Shown: one piece after another, positions 3-12,112 of the stretch
Numbering within the stretch: position 1 is the first letter of the stretch
Layout: the number at the start of each line of letters is the position of its first letter
Assembly (NCBI GenBank): GCA_037426365.1
Contig: JAXYTD010000052.1
Span: forward strand, 15,291 to 79,290
DNA length: 64,000 bases
Source: a bacterium
Lineage (GTDB): Bacteria > Pseudomonadota > Gammaproteobacteria > Enterobacterales > Succinivibrionaceae
Direction of reading: 5' to 3'
Translations under genes and position numbers: made by a program
Notes under the pieces: model-generated
Database searches by the model: none
What the model was told of the DNA's origin: nothing
The model's input: the letters and a program-made list of their open reading frames with translations, nothing else

Positions 3-563
3 GATACTGCGGGGATCAGAGACACTCCGTCGGATGAAATAGAGGCAATAGGCATACGCAAAGCCGTTTCTGCACTAAAACAAGCCGATTTAGTTGTTTT
101 AATGATCGACGGTTCAGTTGCTCCGGAACCTGATTTGCTCCAAAAAATAAGTGACCTAAAAGAATTAAATAGTCAAATCCTCATTGCTATCTCAAAATCG
201 GATCTTCCTCAAAATCCTCAAACCACTTCTCAATTGAACAGCAAGGAGCTTTCTTCTATACCTAAATTACAGATTTCCGTAAAAACATCAGAAGGCTTGC
301 TTTCTTTGCGAAAAAAACTGTCAGAATCATTGGGGATCATACCGATAGAAGGTGTTTACAGTGCCCGTTCACGTCATCTTTCTGCATTGAATGACAGTAT
401 TGAAGCTTTGACTAGAGCTTCTCAGATACTGGAAATCGGTGATTTAGTTCTCTGTGCTCAGGAAATGAAACTTGCACAGGACAGTTTGGGCATGATCACT
501 GGTAAAGTAAGTTCTGACGATTTACTCGGTAAAATTTTCAGTACTTTCTGCATAGGCAAATAA
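3..563 (+). CDS. mnmE: tRNA modification GTPase MnmE (TrmE), 3' part; 5' end outside window
   Basis: Frame is open from the window edge. Translation starts DTAGIRDT (G-domain G3 motif) and ends with the family-typical C-terminal FCIGK. Confidence 0.93.
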   Translation, partial: DTAGIRDTPSDEIEAIGIRKAVSALKQADLVVLMIDGSVAPEPDLLQKISDLKELNSQILIAISKSDLPQNPQTTSQLNSKELSSIPKLQISVKTSEGLLSLRKKLSESLGIIPIEGVYSARSRHLSALNDSIEALTRASQILEIGDLVLCAQEMKLAQDSLGMITGKVSSDDLLGKIFSTFCIGK

Positions 564-565
564 AG

Positions 566-1099
566 CTAAAGTGCCGCCCTGCTTTGGGCTTCAACAGAGG
601 CGGCAAACTCAGCGCATATTTTTTTCCATCCCTTCTTAAGAGTTACAACCATACATTCATATCCGGGAACAGGCTGTTTTTCATTAAACTCCAATACCAG
701 TGAAGAAATTTTCTTTTCATTTTGATAGGCAGTAAACAAAGCTTCTATCTCTACTTGTGAATCCAAAGCTCCGTAAAATTTACTGACGTCTATATCCACA
801 CTGATCGGCTCACTGTTTCTTAATTCTTCAGACAGTACCGCTGCTAACTGCTCTTCCAGCTTTCCGCTCCAACGATGATGTTGCGCCGGTCGCATAACAA
901 CATCAGAGATTTTTACCACCAAGGATCCATCTGACAAAATACCAGCCAGATTCACTTTAATTCTGGATAAACCACGCCATGATGAGGCACTTACATCATC
1001 AGCCACAGTATATCGTTCAACATTGATATTTGACGTCTGACACCCAGAGAATATCAATAAACATGATAAACAACCTATCATTCTCAATATTTTTTTCAT
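566..1099 (-). CDS. pqiC: intermembrane transport lipoprotein PqiC (YmbA family)
   Basis: Signal peptide with lipobox (LIFSGC). HHRWSGKLEEQL and PGYECMV segments parallel E. coli YmbA. ATGA overlap with the pqiB stop. Confidence 0.75.
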   Translation of the reverse strand: MKKILRMIGCLSCLLIFSGCQTSNINVERYTVADDVSASSWRGLSRIKVNLAGILSDGSLVVKISDVVMRPAQHHRWSGKLEEQLAAVLSEELRNSEPISVDIDVSKFYGALDSQVEIEALFTAYQNEKKISSLVLEFNEKQPVPGYECMVVTLKKGWKKICAEFAASVEAQSRAAL

Positions 1100-2727
1100 T
1101 TGATGCTCCCTGGCTCCGGATCATCTTGTTCGTGGTTAAAAATCAAAGAATTTGGTTGCTGACTCAGCTGAGAAAACATCGGTTGCAATTCTTTTAATAT
1201 TTCTCTTATATCATCACTCAAATTGTACAGTTCTTCTACCAATCCCTTGTGTTTAGCTTCATTTTCATGTCCATTTAACTTTTTTAATAAAAATTCAAGT
1301 TCTTCTGATACAGCTGAAGCATGATTAATCAAACCAGAAGATCTCAATTCCCGTCCCGTGATTTTCCACTCAGTCATCAATGCATTCATTGTCTTTAAAT
1401 CACGTTTGATACCATCAGAAATACCTTTAAAATCTATATTTCCTATCTTTTCACTTACAATTTCCAGTCTTTTATCTAATGTCTGCGATTCAATTACAGG
1501 TATTACAAAATCACCGCGATAAGCCTCCTTGATTTTTTTACACTGTTTTTGTGTACCGAAATCCAGTTTTACCGTATCGAGACCTGTCAATAAAGAAGTA
1601 GAAACCAAAGATGCACATAACCTGCCTTCCTTCAGAGCCTGCTTTATCAATTCAGACACTTTTTCATCAGATAATCCTTTTACAGATAAAGCGATTCTAA
1701 CCGGAACATACTGTTCTGAAGACAGAACGGAGCCTGTGTTCTCATACCAAGGACTATCAACAACTCTTCCTATCACAGCCCCTTTCGCCTTTACCAAGCT
1801 ACCTTCGGCAACTACTCCGGACGAATTATTCATCATCAGAACAAAATGCGGGCTGTTTTCCAAAACACTGCCGCTTGCTTCTTTAAAATTTTCAAAAAGT
1901 TTCAATGTCTTGCCGCACTCTTTCAATTCCTCGTGATCATTTAGATCATCAAAGGTGATCCCGCTTGATAAAAGATTCTGTAAATTTTCTGTTCTAAAAG
2001 AAATGCCTTGCGGTCCCATGGAAAAATCCAGTCCGCTGTTTATCCAAAAAACGGATCGCGACGTCACAAGTTGCTTATATTTAGAATCTATAATTACCTT
2101 ATATTTTATTAATCCGCTATCTACTTCTAATTCTGCACCATTAACACTGCCAACCACAAAACCGCGATAGCTGACCGGATCACCGTAGCCAATACGTCGT
2201 CCTGAATTAGATATCAATGTCAAATGCAAAGCATTAGTATCACTTGCTGTTGCCGGAATGTTATCTAATAAGGCAAATTCCCTACCAAACTTATCTGATA
2301 TACCTTGATTCAGCTGAATGTAATTGCCAGTCAGTATAGTATCTAATCCAGAAATATTAGCCGATTGAACTCGAGGCTTAACTACATAAAAAACGGTATC
2401 ACTACGAAGAAGATCCTTTTCGTCTTCATCTATACGAATCTTAAGTTCAACTTTACTGTGATCTTTAGATAAGACTACCTTCTCAACTTTTCCCACTGTT
2501 ACCGATCTGAATTTAACTAAAGTCTTTCCTGCTTCCATACCAGAAGCATCGTCACAGTAAATAGTTATAAGTTCTCCTTTGTCAAAGGTATTTTTCCACA
2601 ACAAAGTTAAAGTAATAACCAAAGCCAAAATCGGAATCAACCAGATAAATGACAGAGTAAACGACTTTCTTGTTACAGCAATTCTATTTTTTTTCAACGT
2701 ACTTATCCCAAATAAGTCTCTCATCAA
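1096..2727 (-). CDS. pqiB: MCE-domain intermembrane transport protein PqiB
   Basis: 543 aa with an N-terminal TM helix, repeated MCE-like segments and a C-terminal helical region. Flanked by pqiA and pqiC. The start may be a few codons downstream. Confidence 0.85.
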   Translation of the reverse strand: MMRDLFGISTLKKNRIAVTRKSFTLSFIWLIPILALVITLTLLWKNTFDKGELITIYCDDASGMEAGKTLVKFRSVTVGKVEKVVLSKDHSKVELKIRIDEDEKDLLRSDTVFYVVKPRVQSANISGLDTILTGNYIQLNQGISDKFGREFALLDNIPATASDTNALHLTLISNSGRRIGYGDPVSYRGFVVGSVNGAELEVDSGLIKYKVIIDSKYKQLVTSRSVFWINSGLDFSMGPQGISFRTENLQNLLSSGITFDDLNDHEELKECGKTLKLFENFKEASGSVLENSPHFVLMMNNSSGVVAEGSLVKAKGAVIGRVVDSPWYENTGSVLSSEQYVPVRIALSVKGLSDEKVSELIKQALKEGRLCASLVSTSLLTGLDTVKLDFGTQKQCKKIKEAYRGDFVIPVIESQTLDKRLEIVSEKIGNIDFKGISDGIKRDLKTMNALMTEWKITGRELRSSGLINHASAVSEELEFLLKKLNGHENEAKHKGLVEELYNLSDDIREILKELQPMFSQLSQQPNSLIFNHEQDDPEPGSIK

Positions 2728-3916
2728 ATGAGGCTGCAGCCCATAAAGTAACTAAAACAACTAAACAGAAGGTCAAAATAGCAAGACCAGGAGCGATCGA
2801 CATCAAGCCACCGAACCTGACGGCTACAGTCATGATGATCACAACAAACACATCAAGCATTGACCATTTACCTATAAATTCAACTAAATGGAAAAGTCTG
2901 GACAAAGCTATAGGATTAGTGATTGCACCTTTATTTACCTTAAAAGACAAATAAGACAATGCCAAAATTTTAAATCCAGGAATAAACAGTGATGCAACAA
3001 TAATTACAGACGCTACTAACCAAGATCCGCTTTTCCACAAAAATAAGGCACCTTCTACGATATTAGATCCTTCCGTATTTCCAAGATAAGTGGTGAACAT
3101 TACAGGGTACAGATTTGATGGTAAAAACAATATCGATGCAGCAAGCAGCAATGCAACACATTTTTGTCCGCATCTTTTCTGACGGAAGGAAGTATTCATC
3201 CCGCATCTGGGGCAAACTGCTTCTTTTGCATGACTAACAAAAGCACATGAACACCGTCTGCAAATCTTTATTCCCTGATCTTTTCCATTCAATTCAAGAT
3301 TTATTTGTAATTCTGGCCCTTCACCTACCAACTTCCATATCGAAACAGGACGGTATTTATTCCAACACCATACAGTCATCCATGAAAATATAATGAACAG
3401 GTAAAATCCAGAAAGAAAATCAACTGTCGCTAAGGAGGTTATCTTGACAAGACTTATTGCCACCGCCAATACAAATACATCGACAAAAGAACATATATGA
3501 CAAAAAGAATAAACAGTAGCAACTGTCTTTGACGGTTTATATCCGAGAAAACCAATTGCACATATGATTAACAACATGCACAACGGTAATAACAACACCG
3601 TACTTACAAACAATGCCGCAAGAAAAAACCAATCCTCAAAAATAAAACATAAGGATAAAAGTGAAAAAGAAGCTGAATTACCAGCTGATGACAACGAAAA
3701 AAAAGGCAAAGGCAACGCACACAACATCATCAATATCGCCGAAATTGCCACAGCAGCACCTTGGGTCAACGATATTTCGTTTGCAGGCCTCAATAACCTT
3801 TTACAACGCGGACAACGGCATTGATAGCCGCGACGATAAGCAGGAAGCAATACAGCAAGATCACATGACGGGCAAATAACTATACTTTCACCATTTAGAT
3901 CCTGCGATTTTCCCAT
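2684..3916 (-). CDS. pqiA: paraquat-inducible protein A-like inner membrane protein
   Basis: Two repeats, each a Cys4 zinc ribbon (CPSC..CPRC and CRRC..CPRC) followed by TM helices. First gene of the pqiABC arrangement. Confidence 0.85.
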   Translation of the reverse strand: MGKSQDLNGESIVICPSCDLAVLLPAYRRGYQCRCPRCKRLLRPANEISLTQGAAVAISAILMMLCALPLPFFSLSSAGNSASFSLLSLCFIFEDWFFLAALFVSTVLLLPLCMLLIICAIGFLGYKPSKTVATVYSFCHICSFVDVFVLAVAISLVKITSLATVDFLSGFYLFIIFSWMTVWCWNKYRPVSIWKLVGEGPELQINLELNGKDQGIKICRRCSCAFVSHAKEAVCPRCGMNTSFRQKRCGQKCVALLLAASILFLPSNLYPVMFTTYLGNTEGSNIVEGALFLWKSGSWLVASVIIVASLFIPGFKILALSYLSFKVNKGAITNPIALSRLFHLVEFIGKWSMLDVFVVIIMTVAVRFGGLMSIAPGLAILTFCLVVLVTLWAAASFDERLIWDKYVEKK

Positions 3917-3945
3917 GCAAAGCCTACCTATTTGTTATCACACTC

Positions 3946-4470
3946 TCACACAAAACCAGAAGCTAAAACGATTTTTCCTGTTTTCAGCGATTGTTGTACA
4001 TCGATAATGCGTTGATTTGATGAACCTCTGAAATCAAGGTCTAAAGATTTTTTTGAAAGAATAAACTGACCATCTACTACTACGTCAAGTTGTTCTAATA
4101 ATGCTTTTCTATCGGGATTATCCAATAATTTTTCAAAAGTGAATCCAGTATAAGACCATAAAGAATATCCCTGTGCTTTAGCTATTTTTGCAAATACAGT
4201 CAAAGGTTTTGGTTGTATAAAAGGTTCTCCACCAGAAAAGGTTACACCGCCTACCAGAGGATCACGCTTCATTTCGTCATACAAAACCTTAAGACAAACT
4301 TCCAAACCACCGTTAAAATCCCATGATTGCTGGTTATGACAACCTTTACAGTGAAAAGGGCAACCTTGCGTAAAGATCACGTAACGAATGCCGGGGCCGT
4401 CAACGATTGATTCCTGAACGGCCCCGGCAATTCTTAAAGTGGTTTGATCCAGAATATCCAGATCAGACAT
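3946..4470 (-). CDS. nrdG: anaerobic ribonucleotide reductase activating enzyme (radical SAM)
   Basis: GCPFHCKGCHN cluster motif, 174 aa, directly downstream of nrdD. Confidence 0.93.
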   Translation of the reverse strand: MSDLDILDQTTLRIAGAVQESIVDGPGIRYVIFTQGCPFHCKGCHNQQSWDFNGGLEVCLKVLYDEMKRDPLVGGVTFSGGEPFIQPKPLTVFAKIAKAQGYSLWSYTGFTFEKLLDNPDRKALLEQLDVVVDGQFILSKKSLDLDFRGSSNQRIIDVQQSLKTGKIVLASGFV

Positions 4471-4477
4471 GGCTTAC

Positions 4478-4642
4478 TCAAACATGCATATGTTTAACAC
4501 GATCGTTTACTTCAGCTCTTTTGGCATTGTTAAAACGATCCAGAGTACCGACCAAATACCCAGTAACTCTTCTGATGCGCTCAAATTTAATACCTTCACC
4601 AACCACTCCATTGTGAGCATGTAATCTTGATTGCATAGCCAT
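4478..4642 (-). CDS. 54-aa stand-alone NrdD-type glycyl-radical peptide (small ORF not in the supplied track)
   Basis: My translation of the minus strand: MAMQSRLHAHNGVVGEGIKFERIRRVTGYLVGTLDRFNNAKRAEVNDRVKHMHV. GAGGAG Shine-Dalgarno lies 4 nt upstream of the ATG. RRVxGYL...RVKH is the C-terminal glycyl-radical signature of class III RNR. The stop is 7 nt before the nrdG ATG. Confidence 0.6.
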   Translation of the reverse strand: MAMQSRLHAHNGVVGEGIKFERIRRVTGYLVGTLDRFNNAKRAEVNDRVKHMHV

Positions 4643-4717
4643 CACTCCTCAAAACAATATATGCAAGATACCGCATCAAGGCGGATAAAAAAAATTAAAT
4701 GAGAAAAAATCTATTCT

Positions 4718-6979
4718 CTAATCAAAGCAACTGCAGTCAACACCAAGTCTTCTTAAACGTTCAATGCTGATCCCTTCTCCGTCACGTCTACCACAACGGG
4801 GACAAACGTCATTTATAACCCCTACATAATTACATACAGGGCAACGGTCCACAGGATGATTGACCGATCCATAGCCGACTCCGCACTGTTTCATATATAA
4901 AATGACTTTTTCAAATGCATCGACATTTTTAGTCAAATCACCGTCCAACTCAACATAAGAAATAGAACCTGCGTTGCACAATTCGTGATACGGGCCTTCT
5001 ATTTTAATCTTATCCGCTGCTGATATATCGTAATAAACAGGAACGTGGAAACTGTTGGTATAGTAAGCTCTGTCTGTAACTCCGGTGATCTTTCCATACA
5101 ATTGTTGATCAATTTTTACAAAACGACCGGACAAGCCTTCGGCCGGAGTTGAAAAAAGAGAAAAGTTAAGTCCTGTTTCCTGAGTATGCCTGTCTGTCAG
5201 CTCTCGCATATGCCTTACAATTTCAAGACCTAACTCGTTTGCCTCAGAACTTTCGCCGTGGTGTTTTCCGACCAATGCTTTGAGACATTCGGCAAGACCG
5301 ATAAAACCAACCGACATAGTTCCATGCTTGATGATATCTTCAATATAATCTTCAGGATCAAGCTTATCTGAACCAATCCAAATTCCCTGTCCCATTAAGA
5401 ACGGATAATTCAGTACTCGTTTCTTTGCAATAATGTCGAAACGATCCTTCAACTGCTCAAAAACCATGGCAAAGGTTCTGTCAACCGAAGTATAGAATCT
5501 GCTGAGCGAACCGTGGGCCTCGATACCGAGTCTAGGCAGATTTACCGACGTAAATGACAAATTACCTCTCCCGGGAATAATTTCCTTGGTTTTATCAAAA
5601 TCATTAGATACTACACGGGTACGACATCCCATCAAAGCAACTTCTGTTTCAGGATGTCCTTCCTTGTAATATTTAATATTAAAAGGTGCGTCTAAAAAGG
5701 AAAAATTGGGGAAAAGACGTTTAGCAGAAACTTTGCATGCTAATCTGAAAAGATCATAATTAGGATCACCTGCTTTGGTATTAATTCCGTCCTTTACTTT
5801 AAAAATCTGAACTGGGAAAATCGGAGTTTCTCCACCGCCCAAACCGGCATCCGTTGCCAACAACACGTTTCTCATGATCATGCGTTGTTCGGCAGTAGTT
5901 CCAGTTCCGTAATTGATCGAAGAAAAAGGTACCTGAGCACCTGCTCGCGATTGCATGGAATTTAAGTTGTGTATCAGCGCTTCCATTGCCTGATAAGTTT
6001 CACGCTGCGTAAGCTTTAAAGATTCCATCATGACATATGAAGCATCAGCCTTGGCATCATTGGATCCTAGCTGTACCAATTCCTGCTCCACAAATTCCTG
6101 AATCTTTTGCTGTGCTTCTTTATCTAACAAAGTGCCTTTTACTTCATAAAGCTCATTACAAAAGCTCTTTAGCGAAGAAATATCCATTTGCTCACGTCTT
6201 AAGCAAATCTCCATGACCTTGCCTACGTGTTTTATGTATGATTTGGCCACATAAGGTGCAAGATCATACTCAAACATAGGAATAGACTGACCGCCATGCA
6301 TGTCATTCTGATTTGATTGAATTGCTATACAACATAAAGCGGCAGCAGACTGAATGGACTGAGGTTCGCGTAAAAAACCGTGCCCTGTGGAAAAACCACG
6401 CTTGAATAAATCCTTAAGACCTATTTGACAACAATTAATTGTTAAAAGGTAGAAATCCAAATCGTGAATATGAATATCACCGCGTGCATGAGCCAACGCA
6501 TGTTCTGGGCGCAAAACATAACGCTTAACGTAATCCTTAGCTCCCTCAGAACCGAATCTCAACATCAAGCCCATAGGTGCATTGGCATCAATATTGGCAT
6601 TTTCACGCTTAAGATCCATATCAGCTGTACTTTTTGAAGTCAGATCTCTGTAAATTTTGGTCAGATCTGTATTGTAAGTACGAGCATTGGTACGACGCTG
6701 GCGGTAAAGGATAAAATTTTTGGCTTCAGAGGCAAGACCAGATTTAATCATGGCCTGTTCAATAAGATCTTGGGTGCGTTCGACAGACGGGGTCTTGGGA
6801 AGCTCTTTTTCAATATCGGCAACAACCATGGAGGTAAGCTTTAAGACTATTTTTTCGTCTGCTACGGTAATTTCGTCATCAGGGTGGACAGAGATCAAAG
6901 CCTTTCGGATCGCGTTGGAGATTTTCTGCTCATTAAAAGCGACTTTTCTCCCATCCCTCTTCATTATGAAACGAATCAT
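4718..6979 (-). CDS. nrdD: anaerobic ribonucleoside-triphosphate reductase, large ORF ending before the glycyl-radical segment
   Basis: N-terminal ATP-cone (KRDGRKVAFNEQKI), a long class III RNR-like body, and a C-terminal zinc ribbon CPVC..CPRC. Ends GEGISIERLRRLGVDCSCFD without the RVxGYL motif. Confidence 0.92.
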   Translation of the reverse strand: MIRFIMKRDGRKVAFNEQKISNAIRKALISVHPDDEITVADEKIVLKLTSMVVADIEKELPKTPSVERTQDLIEQAMIKSGLASEAKNFILYRQRRTNARTYNTDLTKIYRDLTSKSTADMDLKRENANIDANAPMGLMLRFGSEGAKDYVKRYVLRPEHALAHARGDIHIHDLDFYLLTINCCQIGLKDLFKRGFSTGHGFLREPQSIQSAAALCCIAIQSNQNDMHGGQSIPMFEYDLAPYVAKSYIKHVGKVMEICLRREQMDISSLKSFCNELYEVKGTLLDKEAQQKIQEFVEQELVQLGSNDAKADASYVMMESLKLTQRETYQAMEALIHNLNSMQSRAGAQVPFSSINYGTGTTAEQRMIMRNVLLATDAGLGGGETPIFPVQIFKVKDGINTKAGDPNYDLFRLACKVSAKRLFPNFSFLDAPFNIKYYKEGHPETEVALMGCRTRVVSNDFDKTKEIIPGRGNLSFTSVNLPRLGIEAHGSLSRFYTSVDRTFAMVFEQLKDRFDIIAKKRVLNYPFLMGQGIWIGSDKLDPEDYIEDIIKHGTMSVGFIGLAECLKALVGKHHGESSEANELGLEIVRHMRELTDRHTQETGLNFSLFSTPAEGLSGRFVKIDQQLYGKITGVTDRAYYTNSFHVPVYYDISAADKIKIEGPYHELCNAGSISYVELDGDLTKNVDAFEKVILYMKQCGVGYGSVNHPVDRCPVCNYVGVINDVCPRCGRRDGEGISIERLRRLGVDCSCFD

Positions 6980-7198
6980 CGCTTTGAATGCTCCCCCTTC
7001 AAGCTATAAAATATGTATATAAATCAATATAATAATTTAATTATAAAAGTTCCGGAACATTATGCGAAAAAGCATGTGTATTTACAAGCTCCATAAAATT
7101 TATAAGCTATCTTGACACTGCTAAAAACTCATAATTTTTCACATAAATTCACATAAAAAATATTTTTCTTTTAACTGTCTGCTGGAGATCTTAAGAAG

Positions 7199-8278
7199 AT
7201 GAACTACAAAAAGTACGATATCTTTTGTGACGTAATAGACAACTATGGTGATGCCGGCTTCAGCCTTCGACTTGCCCGCACGCTGAGCGAAAAAAATATA
7301 GAAGTCCGTCTTTTTTGTAATGATCTGCAAACTCTCTATACCATTACAGACAGACAAGATCTTACGAATCAATTGCTAAAGATTTCAAAATGGCCAGATC
7401 GCGGGAGCTATCATCCTTATGATATTGTGATTGAAGCTTTTTCGTGCCGTCTGCCTGATCTGTTAAATCAAAAACTGCGTGAACACCATTCATTGGTTAT
7501 AGAACTTGAGTACCTGACGGCAGAAAAATTTTCAGAAGACTGTCACGGATTGTCATCCTCTGCAGACAGTCTAAACAGTTATTTCTTTTTTCCAGGTTTT
7601 AGTAAAAAAACAGGCGGGGTGATTTTCGAACAAAATTTTTTAAACAAGAAAAAGTCGCAGACTTGTCATTTTTCCATACAAAAAGGAATACACGTATCAC
7701 TTTTTTCATACAAAAATCATAACATTACAGATTTTTTTCATATTCTTTCCAAAACAGGTGCTACTGTAAAAATCACTGTATTTAAAGGTCTCGCTCTTGA
7801 CAATGTTAATAACATTTTGAAGCTTTCTCTAAAACCAGGGAAACAACATAGATTAGACAACTTAGAACTTAATGCCGTAGATATGTGCAGTCAGGACGAA
7901 TACGATAATATCCTGCTTACATCAGATCTAAACTGTGTACGCGGGGAAGAATCGGTTGTCAGAGCGATGCTTTGCGGAAAACCTTTTCTTTGGCAGATAT
8001 ACCCACAAAGTGAACAAGCTCATATCATCAAACTAAATTCCCTTTTTGACAGAATGTCTGAATATTTGCCTGAATATCAAGATGATATAAAGATAATACG
8101 TTATTTTAATCTTGAATATAACGGAGTAAGAACAGAGCAGCAACTCCCGTCACTGCTTGAATTTCTTCCGAAATGGGAACAGGTATGTACTAAGTGGTCA
8201 TTGCATCTGATAAAACTAGGTTCACTTACAGACAACCTTATAAAATTTATAGATTGTATAACCTTAAAAAATTCTTAA
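7199..8278 (+). CDS. earP: EF-P arginine-32 rhamnosyltransferase EarP
   Basis: N-terminus YDIFCDVIDNYGDAGFSLRLAR is typical of the EarP (DUF2331) family. Located next to an Arg32-type efp. Confidence 0.85.
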   Translation: MNYKKYDIFCDVIDNYGDAGFSLRLARTLSEKNIEVRLFCNDLQTLYTITDRQDLTNQLLKISKWPDRGSYHPYDIVIEAFSCRLPDLLNQKLREHHSLVIELEYLTAEKFSEDCHGLSSSADSLNSYFFFPGFSKKTGGVIFEQNFLNKKKSQTCHFSIQKGIHVSLFSYKNHNITDFFHILSKTGATVKITVFKGLALDNVNNILKLSLKPGKQHRLDNLELNAVDMCSQDEYDNILLTSDLNCVRGEESVVRAMLCGKPFLWQIYPQSEQAHIIKLNSLFDRMSEYLPEYQDDIKIIRYFNLEYNGVRTEQQLPSLLEFLPKWEQVCTKWSLHLIKLGSLTDNLIKFIDCITLKNS

Positions 8279-8488
8279 TTTTCAACATATTTTATTGTTG
8301 AATAATCTGTAGAACATCAGTGCAATCAAATAACATCGCCCTGTAAAAAAAAGCTTGTATCTGCTAAAATGTCGCGTCAGCAGTTCAGCTGTGACCAAAT
8401 CAGCTGATTTTAGCAGTACACAGTTATCACCTCTTAGAAAAAGGGGTTTGTTTATACTTTAAACAAAATCAACAAAAAGGTTTATCAA

Positions 8489-9052
8489 ATGAAGTTAGCT
8501 CAAGAAGTACGTGCCGGCAACGTGATCATGGTCGACGGCAATCCTATGGTTGTTCAGAAAGCTGAATATAGCAAATCTGGTCGTAACGCCGCCGTAGTAA
8601 AAATGAAACTGAAGAGCTTGCTCTCCAACGCAGGTACCGAAAAAGTATTCCGTGCCGACGATCGTCTCGAAGATGTTGTTCTCGAGCACAAAGACTGCAC
8701 CTACTCCTACCTCAATGATCCTTTCTACGTTTTCATGGACGAAGAATTTAACCAGTATGACGTGGATAAAGACAACATGGGTGATGTTCTTAATTACCTT
8801 ATCGACGGCATGGAAGATGTTTGCCAGGTTACTTTCTATAACGGCAAAGCCATCAGCGTAGAACTTCCCATTAGCATCGTTCGCGAAGTTGAATACACTG
8901 AACCTGCTGTCCGCGGTGATACCTCCGGTAAAGTAACAAAACCTGCTAAGCTGGCCGGTACCGGTTATACCATCTCCGTTCCTGACTTTGTCAAAACTGG
9001 TGATAAGATCGAAATCGACACTCGTACCAATGAGTTCAAGAAACGTGTCTAA
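8489..9052 (+). CDS. efp: elongation factor P, Arg32 (EarP-modified) type
   Basis: 187 aa, closely parallel to Pseudomonas EF-P. The loop is [14 protein letters not shown], with Arg where E. coli has Lys34. Confidence 0.95.
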
Positions 9053-9086
9053 ACATCTGATCTAAGTTTTTAAGAATACGAAAAAC

Positions 9087-9120
9087 AAGCCTGACATCCT
9101 CATGGTGGTCAGGCTTTTTT
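9087..9120 (+). terminator. intrinsic terminator after efp
   Basis: Stem AAGCCTGAC / GTCAGGCTT (9 bp) followed by a T-run. Confidence 0.85.
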
Positions 9121-9557
9121 ACATCTGATGTCCATAAAAGCTCATCTCCAGAAATCAATGCCAGCATCTTTGATAAAATTACGCTAAAAAGTTGTGATTA
9201 GTCTGTTGAGAGTCATGGGATCAGCTGTCGCGTAATGTTTGAGAAAATACGCAAAATTTTTATACTGTTTAAAAGTTAGTTTTTTTCCACCAAACTCAAA
9301 CGATATTTTACCAATTCATAACAGAATTAATCTGATGTTAATGGGTTGTTTTAGTTGCCTTTTTTTAACTTTTCGTCTGTTTTTACATGACTAATAATAA
9401 AAATAATAAAAAAATATATTAATAATTAATATTTTTTTATTTATTAATTATTAGCGTCGTATTTTTCAACAAAAGTTAACGTGAGTACAACTGTCACTAC
9501 TCCATTTTTACATCCTTACTCTATCAACGAAGAAAGGATCTTCTAAAGGCTTACAAG

Positions 9558-11444
9558 ATGAATCCGCTGAGAAATTTTGACGTTATTGTTGTTGGCGCAG
9601 GACATGCCGGAATTGAAGCAGCTGCAGCCAGTGCCAGAATGAAATGCAAAACCTTGCTGTTAACACACAATCTTGAAACAGTTGGAGAAATGTCCTGCAA
9701 TCCGGCATTCGGAGGCATTGGCAAAGGACACTTACTTAAAGAAGTGGACGCAATGGGAGGGGTTTGTCCAGGAGCCATCGATCAGGCAGGAATTCAATTT
9801 CGTTCTCTAAATTCTTCAAAAGGCCCTGCAGTAAGAGCTACAAGAGCTCAGACGGATCGCCATCTTTATAAACAAGTAATAAGACAAACTTTGGCCTCTT
9901 ATCCTAATCTAACTGTTTTTCAGCAACCTTGCATAGCAGTGATCTTTAAGGATGGAACTGTTTGTGGAGTTAAAACAGCCGGTGGAGTAGATTTCTTTGC
10001 AAAAGCTGTAATTATTTGTGCTGGTACCTTTTTAAACGGTCTTATTCATATAGGCTTGGATCATTACAGCGGAGGACGAGCCGGAGATCCTGCTTCTGTT
10101 GCTTTGGCTGAAAACTTAAAGGAATTGGGACTTAAGGTAGGAAGACTTAAAACAGGTACCCCTGCTAGAATTTATGCTGATAGCATTGACTATTCCAAAA
10201 TGCAAAAACAGGAACCAGAAAATCCGCAACCTGTTTTTTCATTTATGCATTCTCATGATATACATCCTAAACAGGTACCTTGTTTTATTACCAGAACAAA
10301 CGAGAAAACTCATGAAATTATTCGTGGAGGATTGGACCGCTCTCCTCTGTATTCTGGAGTGATCCACAGTGTCGGTCCTCGTTATTGCCCGTCTATTGAA
10401 GATAAAATAGTAAGGTATCCTGATAGAACTTCACATCAAATATTTATTGAACCGGAAGGATTGACTTCACCTTTAGTGTATCCAAACGGTATCTCAACAT
10501 CTCTTCCGTTTGATGTACAGGAAGCATTCATACATTCTATCGAAGGATTGGAAAAAGCTGTAATAGCTAGACCTGGATATGCTATTGAATACGATTTTTA
10601 TGATCCAAGAGAATTATCCGTATCGATGCAGTCCAAAATTATCCCAGGTTTATTTCTTGCCGGACAGATTAACGGAACAACCGGATATGAAGAAGCTGCC
10701 GCTCAAGGTCTTTTGGCCGGTATAAATGCAGGACTTTTTGTAAAGGGATTGAAGCCGTGGTTCCCTGGACGTGAGCAGGCATATGTCGGCGTATTGATGG
10801 ATGATCTTTGTACTCTCGGTACGAAAGAACCTTACCGTATGTTTACTTCAAGGGCTGAACATCGTTTGATCCTAAGAGAAGATAATGCTGATGAACGATT
10901 GACTCCTAAGGCAAGGGAATTGGGGGTTATTTCCGATGAACGTTGGATAAGATTTGAGAATAAAGAAAAAGAAATAGAGCAAGAAAGAAATCGTCTTAGA
11001 TCTTACCTTGTGAAGCCTTCAACAACACAAGGAAAGAATATAAGCGAGATTTTGAATAATCCTATGTCACAAGAACAGAGCCTTGAGGAATTGTTAAGAA
11101 GGCCGGAAGTAAGGTATGAAAACTTAATTCAAGCATCAGGACTCGAGCCTTTGGTTACAGATCCGCAGGCTGCTGAACAGGTTGAAATTCAAGTTAAGTA
11201 TCAAGGATATTTAAAGCGTGAGTTGGACGATATTAAGAAAAATCGTAGCAATGAAAATACATTGTTACCATTAAATTTCGATTATTCGTCTATTCCTGCT
11301 TTGTCAAAAGAAGTTGCGCAAAAACTTAACCAATTTAAGCCAGAGACCATAGGTATGGCATCAAGGATCTCTGGAGTTACCCCTGCGGCGATTTCTATTT
11401 TACTAGTACATCTTAAGAAATTAGGTTTATTGGGACAGAGATGA
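9558..11444 (+). CDS. mnmG: tRNA uridine 5-carboxymethylaminomethyl modification enzyme MnmG (GidA)
   Basis: [19 protein letters not shown] motif, 628 aa, followed by rsmG-parAB-atp as in many Gammaproteobacteria. Confidence 0.97.
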
Positions 11445-12112
11445 AAACAAAAAATATAGACCAAGTTTTTTCTTCAGAGGCTATCAGTGAAAAAATCCGT
11501 CTTTTATGGGGACAATCTTCATGTAACGTCGCAGTAAGTGATTTGAAAGTAGAGCAAATGACCAAATTGGTAGGTTTGCTGCATCAATGGAATAAGGCTT
11601 TAAACCTTACTGCCATCAGAGAGCCTGAGGAAATGGTTGTATTGCATATCATAGACTCTATAAGCATAGAACCTTGTATATGTGGAAACAACATTGCTGA
11701 TGTAGGAACCGGCCCGGGATTTCCTGGTTTGGTGTTGGCCATTTTACATCCAGAGATTAAATTTACTTTGATAGATTCAGTAGCAAAAAAAATCTCATTT
11801 GTAAAAAACGCTGTAGCTGTATTAAAACTAGGTAACGTGATACCGGTAAATTGTCGTTGTGAAGACTTGAAAACAAAAGAACATTTTGACTGTATAGTTA
11901 GTCGTGCTTTTGCTCCTTTGGATAAGATTGTAAATTGGTGCCGAGAATTGCTGGTATCTGATGGTAAGTTTGTTGCCATGAAAGCAAAACTTTCAGAAGA
12001 AGAACTTGGTAACGTTCCAGAAGATGTTGTTATAGACAGAATCGAAAAATTAAACGTACCGGGACTGAATGCCACAAGACAAGCGGTAGTAATGTCTTTA
12101 CGCAAACAATAA
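11441..12112 (+). CDS. rsmG: 16S rRNA m7G527 methyltransferase RsmG (GidB)
   Basis: SAM motif [14 protein letters not shown] overlap with mnmG, conserved position. Confidence 0.93.

What the first reader, a model, noticed from the sequence alone, without database searches (positions are those of the whole stretch)
4478..4780. Class III ribonucleotide reductase split: glycyl-radical C-terminus encoded as a separate 54-aa ORF, with a decayed duplicate at the end of nrdD
The 753-aa nrdD ORF stops (TAG at 4720..4718) shortly after its C-terminal zinc ribbon (CPVC..CPRC), with the tail GEGISIERLRRLGVDCSCFD. The 75 nt downstream carry two further in-frame stops (TGA, TGA), so three stops in total separate the two ORFs. 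After that gap, a GAGGAG Shine-Dalgarno precedes a 54-codon ORF that the supplied track omits because it is under 60 aa: MAMQSRLHAHNGVVGEGIKFERIRRVTGYLVGTLDRFNNAKRAEVNDRVKHMHV. The pattern RRVxGYL...RVKH is the hallmark C-terminus of NrdD proteins and carries the radical glycine (RRVCGYLG in E. coli as I recall it). The tail of the large ORF (GEGISIERLRRLG) looks like a degenerate duplicate of the start of the small ORF's conserved part (GEGIKFERIRRVTG), and it diverges exactly where the radical Gly-Tyr should be. The small ORF ends 7 nt before the nrdG start, so large ORF, small ORF and activase appear co-transcribed. The arrangement suggests either a two-polypeptide class III RNR or a spare-part radical domain analogous to GrcA/YfiD for pyruvate formate-lyase. 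I am not aware of a described stand-alone glycyl-radical module for NrdD.
Basis: partly seen in the sequence, partly recalled or inferred. Interest (0 to 1): 0.7.

Follow-up and report, generated by a model that had tools for sequence, protein, structure and literature searches.

The report
Two-gene anaerobic ribonucleotide reductase, separate radical peptide
In this gut bacterium the oxygen-sensitive, radical-carrying tip of the anaerobic DNA-precursor enzyme (class III ribonucleotide reductase) is made as its own conserved 52-residue protein, and many gut phages carry that small gene alone, which suggests a "spare-part" radical module so far identified only for pyruvate formate-lyase.

Summary
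nrdD (4718-6979, minus strand, 753 aa) ends just after its zinc ribbon without the radical glycine. An 81-nt spacer and a GAGGAG ribosome-binding site follow. Then comes a small ORF (4478-4636) that carries RRVTGY...RVKH, and nrdG starts 7 nt later. The conserved start is the second ATG, so the peptide is 52 aa, not 54.

The same split occurs in 50 of 50 Succinivibrionaceae species loci. Spacers run 18-360 nt and fall in all three relative frames. Nearly all have their own Shine-Dalgarno, and selection is purifying (pN/pS 0.12). This excludes a pseudogene, readthrough or bypass.

The large ORF's tail does duplicate the segment before the glycine, with Val at the radical position. It is conserved (pN/pS 0.22), not decaying. 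It parallels the duplicate strand that oxygen-cleaved PFL needs to bind YfiD.

The small protein belongs to a large unnamed family:
- It pairs with truncated nrdD in two Firmicutes-type chromosomal contigs and in some phages.
- About 75 of the 80 best viral contigs carry it alone.
- A Bilophila wadsworthia prophage also carries it alone.

A 2026 review states that no spare-part protein is known outside PFL. Function is inferred, not assayed.

The parts
4718..6979 (-). nrdD-L. This is the large subunit of the class III ribonucleotide reductase (753 aa): ATP-cone, alpha/beta barrel and zinc ribbon, but no radical glycine.
   Evidence: NCBIfam NF005497 scores 1019.8 bits (cut-off 764) over profile positions 1-718 of 746. 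Pfam NRDD E=3e-182. Residues 1-732 align to P. copri NrdD 8p23 residues 5-705. The motifs NAN (127), INCCQ (181), MGCRTR (450), RGNLSF (471) and TPAEG (611) are present.
6689..6970 (-). ATP-cone (allosteric activity domain), residues 4-97 of nrdD-L.
   Evidence: Pfam PF03477, E=1.9e-16.
4793..4843 (-). C-terminal zinc ribbon CPVC-x9-CPRC. It stays on the large subunit.
   Evidence: Translation. It aligns to the Zn site of the P. copri glycyl radical domain.
4721..4780 (-). Tail GEGISIERLRRLGVDCSCFD. This is a conserved duplicate of the pre-glycine limb of the radical loop, with Val at the radical-glycine position and a terminal CxC.
   Evidence: It occupies the same HMM columns (710-718) as the small ORF. 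0 of 20,000 shuffles reach the observed similarity. [LI]G[VI] is present in 50 of 50 loci, and 46 of 50 have at least 2 Cys in the last 9 aa. pN/pS is 0.22. The motif GE[GA]VS.E.L..LG recurs in Firmicutes-type and phage split genes.
4637..4717 (-). An 81-nt intergenic spacer (75 nt to the first ATG) with two extra in-frame TGA codons.
   Evidence: In 50 related loci the spacer is 18-360 nt, with relative frames 0/1/2 in 22/15/13 loci. A 1-nt T-run indel relative to L001 already changes the frame. There is no Rfam match.
4645..4650 (-). Shine-Dalgarno GAGGAG, 8 nt upstream of the conserved ATG of the small ORF.
   Evidence: An SD-like 4-mer lies upstream of the small ORF in 49 of 50 loci.
4478..4636 (-). 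nrdD-S. This is the 52-aa radical subunit MQSRLHAHNGVVGEGIKFERIRRVTGYLVGTLDRFNNAKRAEVNDRVKHMHV, comprising the Gly loop plus the C-terminal helix and tail.
   Evidence: Pfam NRDD positions 533-562 of 562, E=6.8e-8. NCBIfam NF005497 positions 710-744 of 746. Residues 18-50 align to 8p23 residues 707-739. Over 3,800 homologues were found, and the best 120 plus 146 further representatives are all short stand-alone proteins. pN/pS is 0.12.
4559..4561 (-). Codon of the predicted radical glycine. It is Gly26 of the 52-aa protein and corresponds to Gly711 of P. copri NrdD.
   Evidence: T25, G26 and Y27 are invariant in a 32-member alignment of small proteins.
3946..4470 (-). nrdG, the radical-SAM activase, starting 7 nt after the small ORF.
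   Evidence: NCBIfam TIGR02491 scores 154.3 bits (cut-off 126.1). Pfam Fer4_12, E=1.5e-37.
7040..7068 (-). Promoter-like site TTCGCA-17-TATAAT upstream of nrdD-L. This is a consensus match only.
   Evidence: The number of such sites in the region is not above the shuffled expectation.

Best explanation
This is a class III (anaerobic) ribonucleotide reductase built from two polypeptides plus its activase, encoded as nrdD-L, nrdD-S and nrdG.

**The parts**
- NrdD-L (753 aa) carries the ATP-cone, the catalytic barrel with the thiyl-radical cysteine loop, and the zinc ribbon.
- NrdD-L ends in a dead copy of the radical loop's ascending limb, with Val where the radical Gly would be.
- NrdD-S (52 aa) is translated independently from its own Shine-Dalgarno sequence and ATG.
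- NrdD-S supplies the buried Gly loop (RRVTG*Y) and the C-terminal helix and tail.

**Inferred steps**
1. NrdG abstracts the C-alpha hydrogen of Gly26 of NrdD-S.
2. The loop sits in the NrdD-L barrel next to the Cys of MGCRTR, as in one-piece enzymes.
3. It is held by the same contacts that are seen in P. copri NrdD (Tyr after Gly to the Glu of TPAEG; Arg of DRFN to the NxN flap), and probably also by the conserved duplicate tail.
4. Reduction uses formate, because the active site is the Cys/Asn type.

**Inferred benefit**
Oxygen destroys a glycyl radical by cutting the chain at the glycine. With a split enzyme only a 6-kDa peptide is lost, and it can be replaced. The large subunit is in effect a genetically fixed equivalent of oxygen-cleaved NrdD, and the small one is a permanent spare part.

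The same small gene carried alone by many phages and prophages would supply or re-arm the host enzyme. That is also inferred.
For: **Shown by the sequence and domain searches**
- The domain split falls on adjacent genes, with overlapping profile columns 710-718.
- Against the solved P. copri enzyme, the split maps between the Zn ribbon and the Gly711 loop.
- Y27 and R34 are retained in S. NAN, TPAEG, the Cys loop and the Asn of RGNLSF are retained in L.

**Shown by comparison with related loci**
- 50 of 50 Succinivibrionaceae species loci are split. Spacers run 18-360 nt in all three frames, and 49 of 50 have an SD-like motif.
- Synonymous sites are saturated (pS about 0.78) while pN/pS is 0.12 for S, 0.22 for the tail and 0.11 for a control region.
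- 29 Clostridia relatives at 54-58% identity are unsplit.
- Two Firmicutes-type chromosomal contigs (one an Oscillospiraceae MAG) have the same L-S-nrdG operon and tail motif.
- Five phage loci have an L gene without a radical Gly near an S gene, in variable order.

**Evidence that S is an autonomous family**
- All 266 retrieved S homologues start with Met, and none has an upstream Zn ribbon.
- About 75 of the 80 best viral contigs carry S with no nrdD or nrdG within 6 kb. Their phage context is confirmed.

**Precedent in PFL**
- YfiD/GrcA rescues oxygen-cleaved PFL.
- Cleaved PFL keeps a duplicate strand that is required for YfiD binding and activation.
Against: - There is no expression, proteomic, EPR or activity data.
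- I could not check whether these genomes also hold another RNR or a second, intact nrdD.
- The oxygen-damage rationale is an analogy with PFL/YfiD. Succinivibrionaceae are, to my knowledge, strict anaerobes, so the selective advantage is uncertain.
- The terminal CxC of the tail is unexplained, and it is missing in some clades.
- The role of the tail in docking is inferred only from its conservation.
Confidence: 0.8

Rival explanations
1. Decaying pseudogene or assembly/sequencing artefact. On this view nrdD was broken by mutation or mis-assembly and the small ORF is a leftover.
For: The window alone shows a stop codon plus two more in-frame stops inside what is normally one gene. The source is a MAG.
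Against: - The same architecture appears in 50 independent species-level assemblies, including cultured isolates (S. hippei YIT 12066, A. succiniciproducens DSM 6400, Succinivibrio faecicola).
- pN/pS is 0.12 against saturated synonymous change.
- The SD and start codon are conserved.
- The small protein has thousands of stand-alone homologues.
Confidence: 0.02
2. Recoding. On this view a single NrdD polypeptide is made by stop-codon readthrough, frameshifting, ribosomal bypass (as in T4 gene 60), RNA splicing or protein splicing.
For: In this window the small ORF happens to be in frame with the large one, 75 or 81 nt downstream. T4 nrdD is known to carry a group I intron (own knowledge), and phage nrdD genes seen here carry inteins.
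Against: - Three stops would need to be read through.
- Spacers range from 18 to 360 nt in all three frames, and near-identical L001 differs in frame by a 1-nt indel.
- Each small ORF has its own SD and ATG.
- In phages other genes sit between L and S, or S precedes L.
- There is no Rfam intron or other RNA family.
- Pfam finds no intein (Hint) domain, and the 20-aa and 12-aa flanks are too short for a split intein.
Confidence: 0.03
3. Accessory-only model. On this view NrdD-L is active without NrdD-S, using another radical site or partner. NrdD-S would then be only a back-up or a regulator, for example a decoy substrate that titrates NrdG. In phages it could be an inhibitor of host dNTP synthesis.
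For: - A Gly is invariant in the tail ([LI]G[VI], 50 of 50).
- Most phage copies are solitary, so they must act on a host enzyme of unknown type.
- YfiD acts only on damaged PFL.
Against: - In an ungapped alignment the tail has Val/Ile at the radical position, and its Gly aligns with the Thr before it.
- In the Succinivibrionaceae tail the conserved Tyr that H-bonds to the TPAEG Glu is also lost; the two Firmicutes-type tails keep a Tyr there. All the tails lack the whole C-terminal helix and tail that anchors the loop.
- Class III RNRs are, to my knowledge, not known to work without the glycyl radical.
- S is as constrained as the catalytic core, and it is always placed between L and nrdG in cellular genomes.
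Confidence: 0.07

Closest known systems
GrcA/YfiD of E. coli and Y06I of phage T4 (autonomous glycyl radical cofactors, spare parts for pyruvate formate-lyase)
   Same: - It is a small stand-alone protein that carries only the Gly-radical loop and C-terminal helix of a large glycyl radical enzyme.
- It is activated by that enzyme's radical-SAM activase.
- The large partner keeps a duplicate of the strand before the glycine, and in PFL that strand is required for binding and activation.
- Phage-encoded versions exist (T4 Y06I; here).
   Different: - By sequence this protein belongs to the NrdD family, not the PFL/Gly_radical family. It has no PF01228 or GrcA model hit.
- It is much shorter (52 aa against 127 aa) and has no long disordered N-terminus.
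- In this genome the partner has no radical glycine of its own, so the small protein is an obligatory subunit rather than a repair part.
- Its function has not been assayed.
One-piece class III RNR NrdD (P. copri 8p23; T4 1h78; L. lactis-type NF005497)
   Same: - It has the same domains in the same order, and the same formate-type active-site residues.
- It has the same Zn ribbon and the same RRxTGY...DRVKH radical module.
- nrdG is adjacent.
   Different: - The chain is interrupted between the Zn ribbon and the Gly loop, which is inside the glycyl radical domain (P. copri residues 676-739).
- About 12 residues are duplicated on both sides of the break.
- The small part has a new conserved N-terminal extension, M.TRLH..NG.VGEG.
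Split class II RNR NrdJa/NrdJb of Pseudomonas aeruginosa (PMC4520616); split class I nrdA of Aeromonas phage Aeh1 (own knowledge)
   Same: An RNR catalytic subunit is encoded by two neighbouring genes and expressed as separate polypeptides that must assemble.
   Different: The RNR class and cofactor are different. Those splits do not isolate the radical-bearing element on a tiny peptide, and no solitary mobile copies of one half are known for them.

Membership tests
Class III RNR catalytic subunit NrdD (Pfam PF13597; NCBIfam NF005497) | Sequence match above the curated cut-off | tested here: met
   Large ORF: NF005497 scores 1019.8 bits against 764, and PF13597 scores 607.5 against 26.2. Small ORF: PF13597 scores 32.1 against 26.2, covering only the last 30 profile positions.
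Class III RNR catalytic subunit NrdD (Pfam PF13597; NCBIfam NF005497) | Thiyl-radical Cys loop, bottom-face Cys and Asn (formate type), NxN flap | tested here: met
   MGCRTR, INCCQ, RGNLSF and NAN align to the corresponding P. copri residues.
Class III RNR catalytic subunit NrdD (Pfam PF13597; NCBIfam NF005497) | Radical glycine motif RRxxGY and the C-terminal helix on the same polypeptide as the barrel | tested here: not met
   The large ORF ends ...IERLRRLGVDCSCFD, with Val at the Gly position. The motif lies on the separate 52-aa ORF.
Class III RNR catalytic subunit NrdD (Pfam PF13597; NCBIfam NF005497) | Cognate radical-SAM activase NrdG | tested here: met
   TIGR02491 scores 154.3 bits against a cut-off of 126.1, and the gene starts 7 nt downstream of the small ORF.
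Class III RNR catalytic subunit NrdD (Pfam PF13597; NCBIfam NF005497) | Glycyl radical formation and NTP reduction | not testable with these tools
   This needs EPR and an activity assay.
GrcA/YfiD autonomous glycyl radical cofactor (InterPro IPR011140; Pfam Gly_radical PF01228) | Small stand-alone protein consisting of a glycyl radical loop and C-terminal helix | tested here: met
   The ORF is 52 aa with its own SD. It has 266 stand-alone homologues of 52-196 aa, all starting with Met.
GrcA/YfiD autonomous glycyl radical cofactor (InterPro IPR011140; Pfam Gly_radical PF01228) | Sequence membership in the PFL-type Gly_radical/GrcA models | tested here: not met
   Only NrdD models hit the small ORF at E<=1. 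There is no PF01228 or GrcA family hit.
GrcA/YfiD autonomous glycyl radical cofactor (InterPro IPR011140; Pfam Gly_radical PF01228) | Partner enzyme normally has its own radical glycine, and the spare part acts after oxygen cleavage | tested here: not met
   The partner in this window and in 50 related loci lacks the glycine. For the solitary phage copies the host enzyme type is unknown.
GrcA/YfiD autonomous glycyl radical cofactor (InterPro IPR011140; Pfam Gly_radical PF01228) | Duplicate pre-glycine strand kept by the large partner | tested here: met
   The tail and the small ORF share HMM columns 710-718. 0 of 20,000 shuffles reach the observed similarity. The tail's pN/pS is 0.22.
Programmed recoding (readthrough, frameshift, T4 gene-60-type bypass) | Fixed geometry between the two coding parts and no independent initiation signal | tested here: not met
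   Spacers run 18-360 nt with frames 22/15/13, and 49 of 50 loci have their own SD.
Intron or intein-interrupted nrdD | Self-splicing RNA or a Hint/intein domain at the break | tested here: not met
   There is no Rfam match at E<=1 in 3800-7300. Pfam finds no intein domain in either ORF.

The most novel reading that the evidence does not exclude
NrdD-S would define a widespread, unnamed family of NrdD-type autonomous glycyl-radical peptides. That would make it the first spare-part or consumable radical subunit for a glycyl radical enzyme other than pyruvate formate-lyase.

- In Succinivibrionaceae, in two Firmicutes-type chromosomal contigs (one an Oscillospiraceae MAG) and in some phages, it has become the obligatory radical subunit of a two-piece class III RNR.
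- Many temperate gut phages and prophages carry it alone, including a very common Bilophila wadsworthia prophage.
- In those phages it would act as a moron or auxiliary gene that arms or re-arms the host's anaerobic RNR to sustain dNTP supply.
- The tail-plus-small-gene module may move between nrdD genes as a cassette.
Probability: 0.5. Interest if true: 0.9.

Novelty: new variant of a known kind. Interest (0 to 1): 0.8.

Why it matters
- **An open question in the field.** A 2026 review of glycyl radical enzymes says spare-part proteins are identified only for formate-lyases, and that it is undetermined whether they exist for other family members. This locus, its 50-species conservation and the phage-borne solitary copies give a concrete candidate for class III RNR, and it is directly testable in cultured strains.
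- **Mechanism.** A natural two-piece enzyme gives a handle on how the glycyl radical domain leaves the barrel to meet its activase. It would also help test what the duplicate strand does in the PFL/YfiD case.
- **Phage biology.** The solitary copies would be a new class of phage auxiliary gene acting on host nucleotide metabolism in the anaerobic gut.
- **Annotation.** Sources name these proteins "hypothetical" or label them as full reductases. NCBIfam, Pfam and PHROGs have no dedicated model.

Tried and rejected
- **Fused-chain AlphaFold model.** I did not run the large or small protein alone. The tool returns only confidence and secondary structure, which would not locate the tail.
- **Rfam scan of 3800-7300.** It found nothing.
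- **Promoter and terminator scan.** It found no terminator and only one weak promoter-like match in or next to the spacer, and counts were at the shuffled expectation. Co-transcription is therefore neither shown nor excluded.
- **First regex-based ORF calls.** These missed many loci. They were replaced by coordinate-based extension and tblastn.
- **Bootstrapped NJ tree.** It timed out. The unsupported NJ trees are only indicative.
- **GenBank phage collection.** It gave few hits, mostly unsplit nrdD of C. difficile phages. IMG/VR was far richer.
- **Literature searches.** Searches for a split, truncated or two-gene NrdD returned nothing.
- **Rejected explanations.** I considered an assembly artefact, a pseudogene, readthrough or bypass, an intron, and a split intein. 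All are rejected; see the rival explanations.
Full report
**Observation**

On the minus strand the window encodes three adjacent genes:
- a 753-aa NrdD (4718-6979);
- an 81-nt spacer;
- a small ORF (4478-4636);
- nrdG (3946-4470), starting 7 nt after the small ORF.

Pfam and NCBIfam put the large ORF on the anaerobic RNR model NF005497 from position 1 to 718 of 746 (1019.8 bits, cut-off 764). The small ORF falls on positions 710-744. The third ORF matches NrdG (TIGR02491, 154 bits). The large ORF has the ATP-cone, the barrel and the zinc ribbon CPVC...CPRC. It ends GEGISIERLRRLGVDCSCFD without the RRxxGY motif. The small ORF carries GEGIKFERIRRVTGYLVGTLDRFNNAKRAEVNDRVKH.

**Start codon**

In 50 related loci the small protein begins M[QV]TRLH. 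That corresponds to the second ATG of the window (4636-4634). GAGGAG lies 8 nt upstream of this ATG and only 2 nt from the first ATG. The product is therefore most likely 52 aa, not 54.

**Is it real and selected?**

A scan of one genome per GTDB species identifies the window as a Succinatimonas MAG. L001 has a 100% identical large protein. It returned 52 Succinivibrionaceae-type loci at 71-100% identity. Among them are the isolates Succinatimonas hippei YIT 12066, Anaerobiospirillum succiniciproducens DSM 6400 and Succinivibrio faecicola. All 50 loci with a complete 3' region show the same architecture.

- The spacer varies from 18 to 360 nt.
- The small ORF lies in relative frame 0, 1 or 2 in 22, 15 and 13 loci.
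- 49 of 50 have an SD-like motif.
- L001 is nearly identical to the window. It differs by one T in a T-run of the spacer, which changes the relative frame.

Synonymous sites between species are saturated (pS about 0.78). Non-synonymous change is low. pN/pS is 0.12 for the small ORF, 0.14 for its N-terminal 18 codons, 0.22 for the 23-codon tail of the large ORF, and 0.11 for a 60-codon control. There is no Rfam family in the region. Pfam finds no intein domain. An artefact, a pseudogene, readthrough, frameshift, bypass and splicing are therefore rejected. These are two separately translated, selected genes.

**Where the break lies**

The best solved relative is Prevotella copri NrdD. The large ORF residues 1-732 align to chain residues 5-705. 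The small ORF residues 18-50 align to 707-739. In that enzyme residues 676-739 form the glycyl radical domain. It consists of the Zn site, the buried loop with Gly711, a short helix and an extended tail. The break is thus inside this domain: the Zn ribbon stays on the large protein, and the loop, helix and tail form the small one.

The contacts described for P. copri have conserved partners on both polypeptides here. These are Tyr712 to Glu581, and Arg719 to the NxN flap. The small protein keeps Y27 and R34. The large protein keeps TPAEG and NAN. The Cys/Cys/Asn formate-type active site is also conserved.

**The duplicate**

HMMER aligns ISIERLRRL of the tail and IKFERIRRV of the small ORF to the same profile columns. 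Their local similarity was never reached in 20,000 shuffles. Unsplit relatives have a single copy directly after the Zn ribbon (CGRxExxxxFERIRRITGY). In an ungapped alignment, the tail has Gly at the Thr position and Val/Ile at the radical Gly position. [LI]G[VI] is invariant in 50 of 50 loci.

The tail is conserved, not decaying. A related motif, GE[GA]VS.E.L..LG, ends the truncated nrdD genes of Firmicutes-type contigs and phages that are only about 55% identical overall. Most tails end with CxC, whose role is unknown.

**A wider family**

The small protein has more than 3,800 database homologues. The best 120 are all proteins of 52-95 aa. An exhaustive HMMER search of 1.8 billion cluster representatives gave 2,042 hits. 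The best 150 are all 52-196 aa. All 266 retrieved sequences start with Met. None has a Zn ribbon upstream, so they are not fragments of full-length genes. They share (V/I)GxGVxFERIRR[IV]TGYLVGTxDRFNxAKRAExxDRVKH.

Three kinds of context were found.

1. **Cellular operons.** Besides Succinivibrionaceae, nrdD-L/S/nrdG operons occur in two chromosomal contigs with housekeeping neighbours. One is from an Oscillospiraceae MAG. The other is an unassigned, apparently Firmicutes-type JGI metagenome contig.
2. **Phage loci with both genes.** L and S occur in variable order and spacing, and every such L lacks the glycine.
3. **Solitary copies.** Of the best 80 IMG/VR contigs, all encode a stand-alone S. 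Only three have an nrdD within 6 kb, and two have an nrdG.

Phage identity of the solitary-copy contigs is supported by several kinds of neighbouring gene. These include tail, anti-repressor, integrase, holin/endolysin and terminase genes. A 58-aa member annotated in Bilophila wadsworthia lies in a prophage next to the large terminase. It was indexed in 1,419 collection blocks. One group of viral contigs (L087-L106) has S proteins 82-88% identical to the window's, including the N-terminal TRLH..NG extension. This suggests phages of Succinivibrionaceae that copy the host subunit.

**Mechanism**

*Shown:* the gene structure, the conservation, the independent translation signals, the homology of each part, and the retention of interface residues.

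*Inferred:*
- NrdG makes the radical on Gly26 of the small subunit.
- The loop docks in the large subunit's barrel as in one-piece NrdD.
- The duplicate tail helps binding or activation.
- Separating the radical element makes oxygen damage cheap to repair.

The last two points rest on the PFL precedent. YfiD/GrcA and T4 Y06I replace the oxygen-cleaved C-terminus of PFL. Cleaved PFL retains a duplicate beta-strand. Removing that strand abolished detectable YfiD binding and reduced activation 32-fold. The large ORF here looks like a genetically encoded version of oxygen-cleaved NrdD.

**Comparison with what is known**

By sequence the parts are NrdD, not GrcA. No Gly_radical or GrcA model is hit. 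The locus fails the NrdD feature "radical glycine on the catalytic chain". It also fails the GrcA feature "partner has its own glycine". Split RNR catalytic subunits are known for class II (P. aeruginosa NrdJa/b) and, from my own knowledge, for a phage class I enzyme.

Full-text searches found no report of a split class III enzyme or an NrdD-type autonomous radical peptide. A June 2026 review states that formate-lyases are the only GRE class with identified spare-part proteins, and that it is yet to be determined whether they exist for other GREs. The library does not cover all journals, so an earlier mention elsewhere cannot be excluded.

**Origin**

The Succinivibrionaceae enzyme is of the Firmicutes/Lactococcus type (NF005497), not the enterobacterial type (NF006732 scores 462 bits, below its cut-off of 657). 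Its nearest cellular relatives outside the family are Clostridia. Unsupported NJ trees place a phage L gene (L083) next to the Succinivibrionaceae clade. They interleave split and unsplit Firmicutes-type genes. This fits horizontal transfer and perhaps cassette-like movement of the tail-plus-S module, but it is not established.

**Verdict**

It is a new variant of known kinds (class III RNR; autonomous glycyl radical cofactor), and it bears on a question the field calls open. Function awaits biochemistry.

Noticed in passing
L003, L004, L006, L020: These contigs carry this Succinivibrionaceae-type split nrdD at 77-89% identity. They are deposited under Bacteroidaceae, Firmicutes CAG:534, Akkermansia muciniphila and Bacillota MAGs. 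Mis-binned contigs are the likely explanation.
   Followed up: no
L084 4873-5078 (Eggerthella phage EL753P1, OP172808.1): The small radical-peptide gene is broken exactly in the radical loop. The annotated 42-aa CDS ends ...GFERIRRI*, and TTGYLTGSADRWNDAKKAELRDRVKHGK continues in another frame. This could be a sequencing error, a pseudogene or a frameshift site. The adjacent 960-aa nrdD lacks the radical glycine.
   Followed up: partly
L083 787-3426; L084 1626-4508: The phage nrdD-L genes carry large insertions after the MGC motif (CFTKGHW...VSNNC, CADERET...NSHNC). These look like inteins, and the second has a homing-endonuclease-sized insert.
   Followed up: no
L153 6000-8728: In this viral contig the small gene lies immediately upstream of nrdD-L, the reverse of the usual order. 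The tblastn match of L is interrupted by about 335 nt between residues 174 and 173 (6654-6989). That could be an intron or another insertion.
   Followed up: no
L170-L173 (Bilophila wadsworthia-type contigs), gene at 7001-7177: A 58-aa NrdD-type radical peptide (WP_278657544.1) sits in a prophage between a DNA methylase, an unknown ORF and the large terminase, with HicAB nearby. It is indexed in 1,419 blocks of the collection, so it is very common in gut metagenomes.
   Followed up: partly
window 4721-4744 and tails in L001-L057, L083, L153: A terminal CxC (for example GVDCSCFD, GVGCICTG, IGCNCYK) is present in 46 of 50 Succinivibrionaceae tails and in two phage tails. It is absent in L007, L008, L047, L112, L165 and L084. 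Its role is unknown. The small protein has His-rich ends (RLHAHN, KHMHV).
   Followed up: partly
window 102-12112: The locus sits in core-chromosome context, not in a mobile element. The neighbours are the mnmE 3' end, pqiA, pqiB (MlaD) and a lipoprotein gene on one side. On the other side are earP, efp, mnmG and rsmG.
   Followed up: yes
window 4637-4717 compared with L001 and L002: The spacer contains a T-run whose length differs by one base between near-identical strains. It also has a small inverted repeat CCGCCTTGATGCGG. No function has been assigned.
   Followed up: no
L174, L176 compared with L058, L077: In a rough NJ tree, split Firmicutes-type nrdD-L genes fall at separate places among unsplit Clostridia genes, although their tails share a motif. 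This hints at repeated acquisition or recombination of the 3' tail-plus-small-gene module. The tree has no support values.
   Followed up: partly
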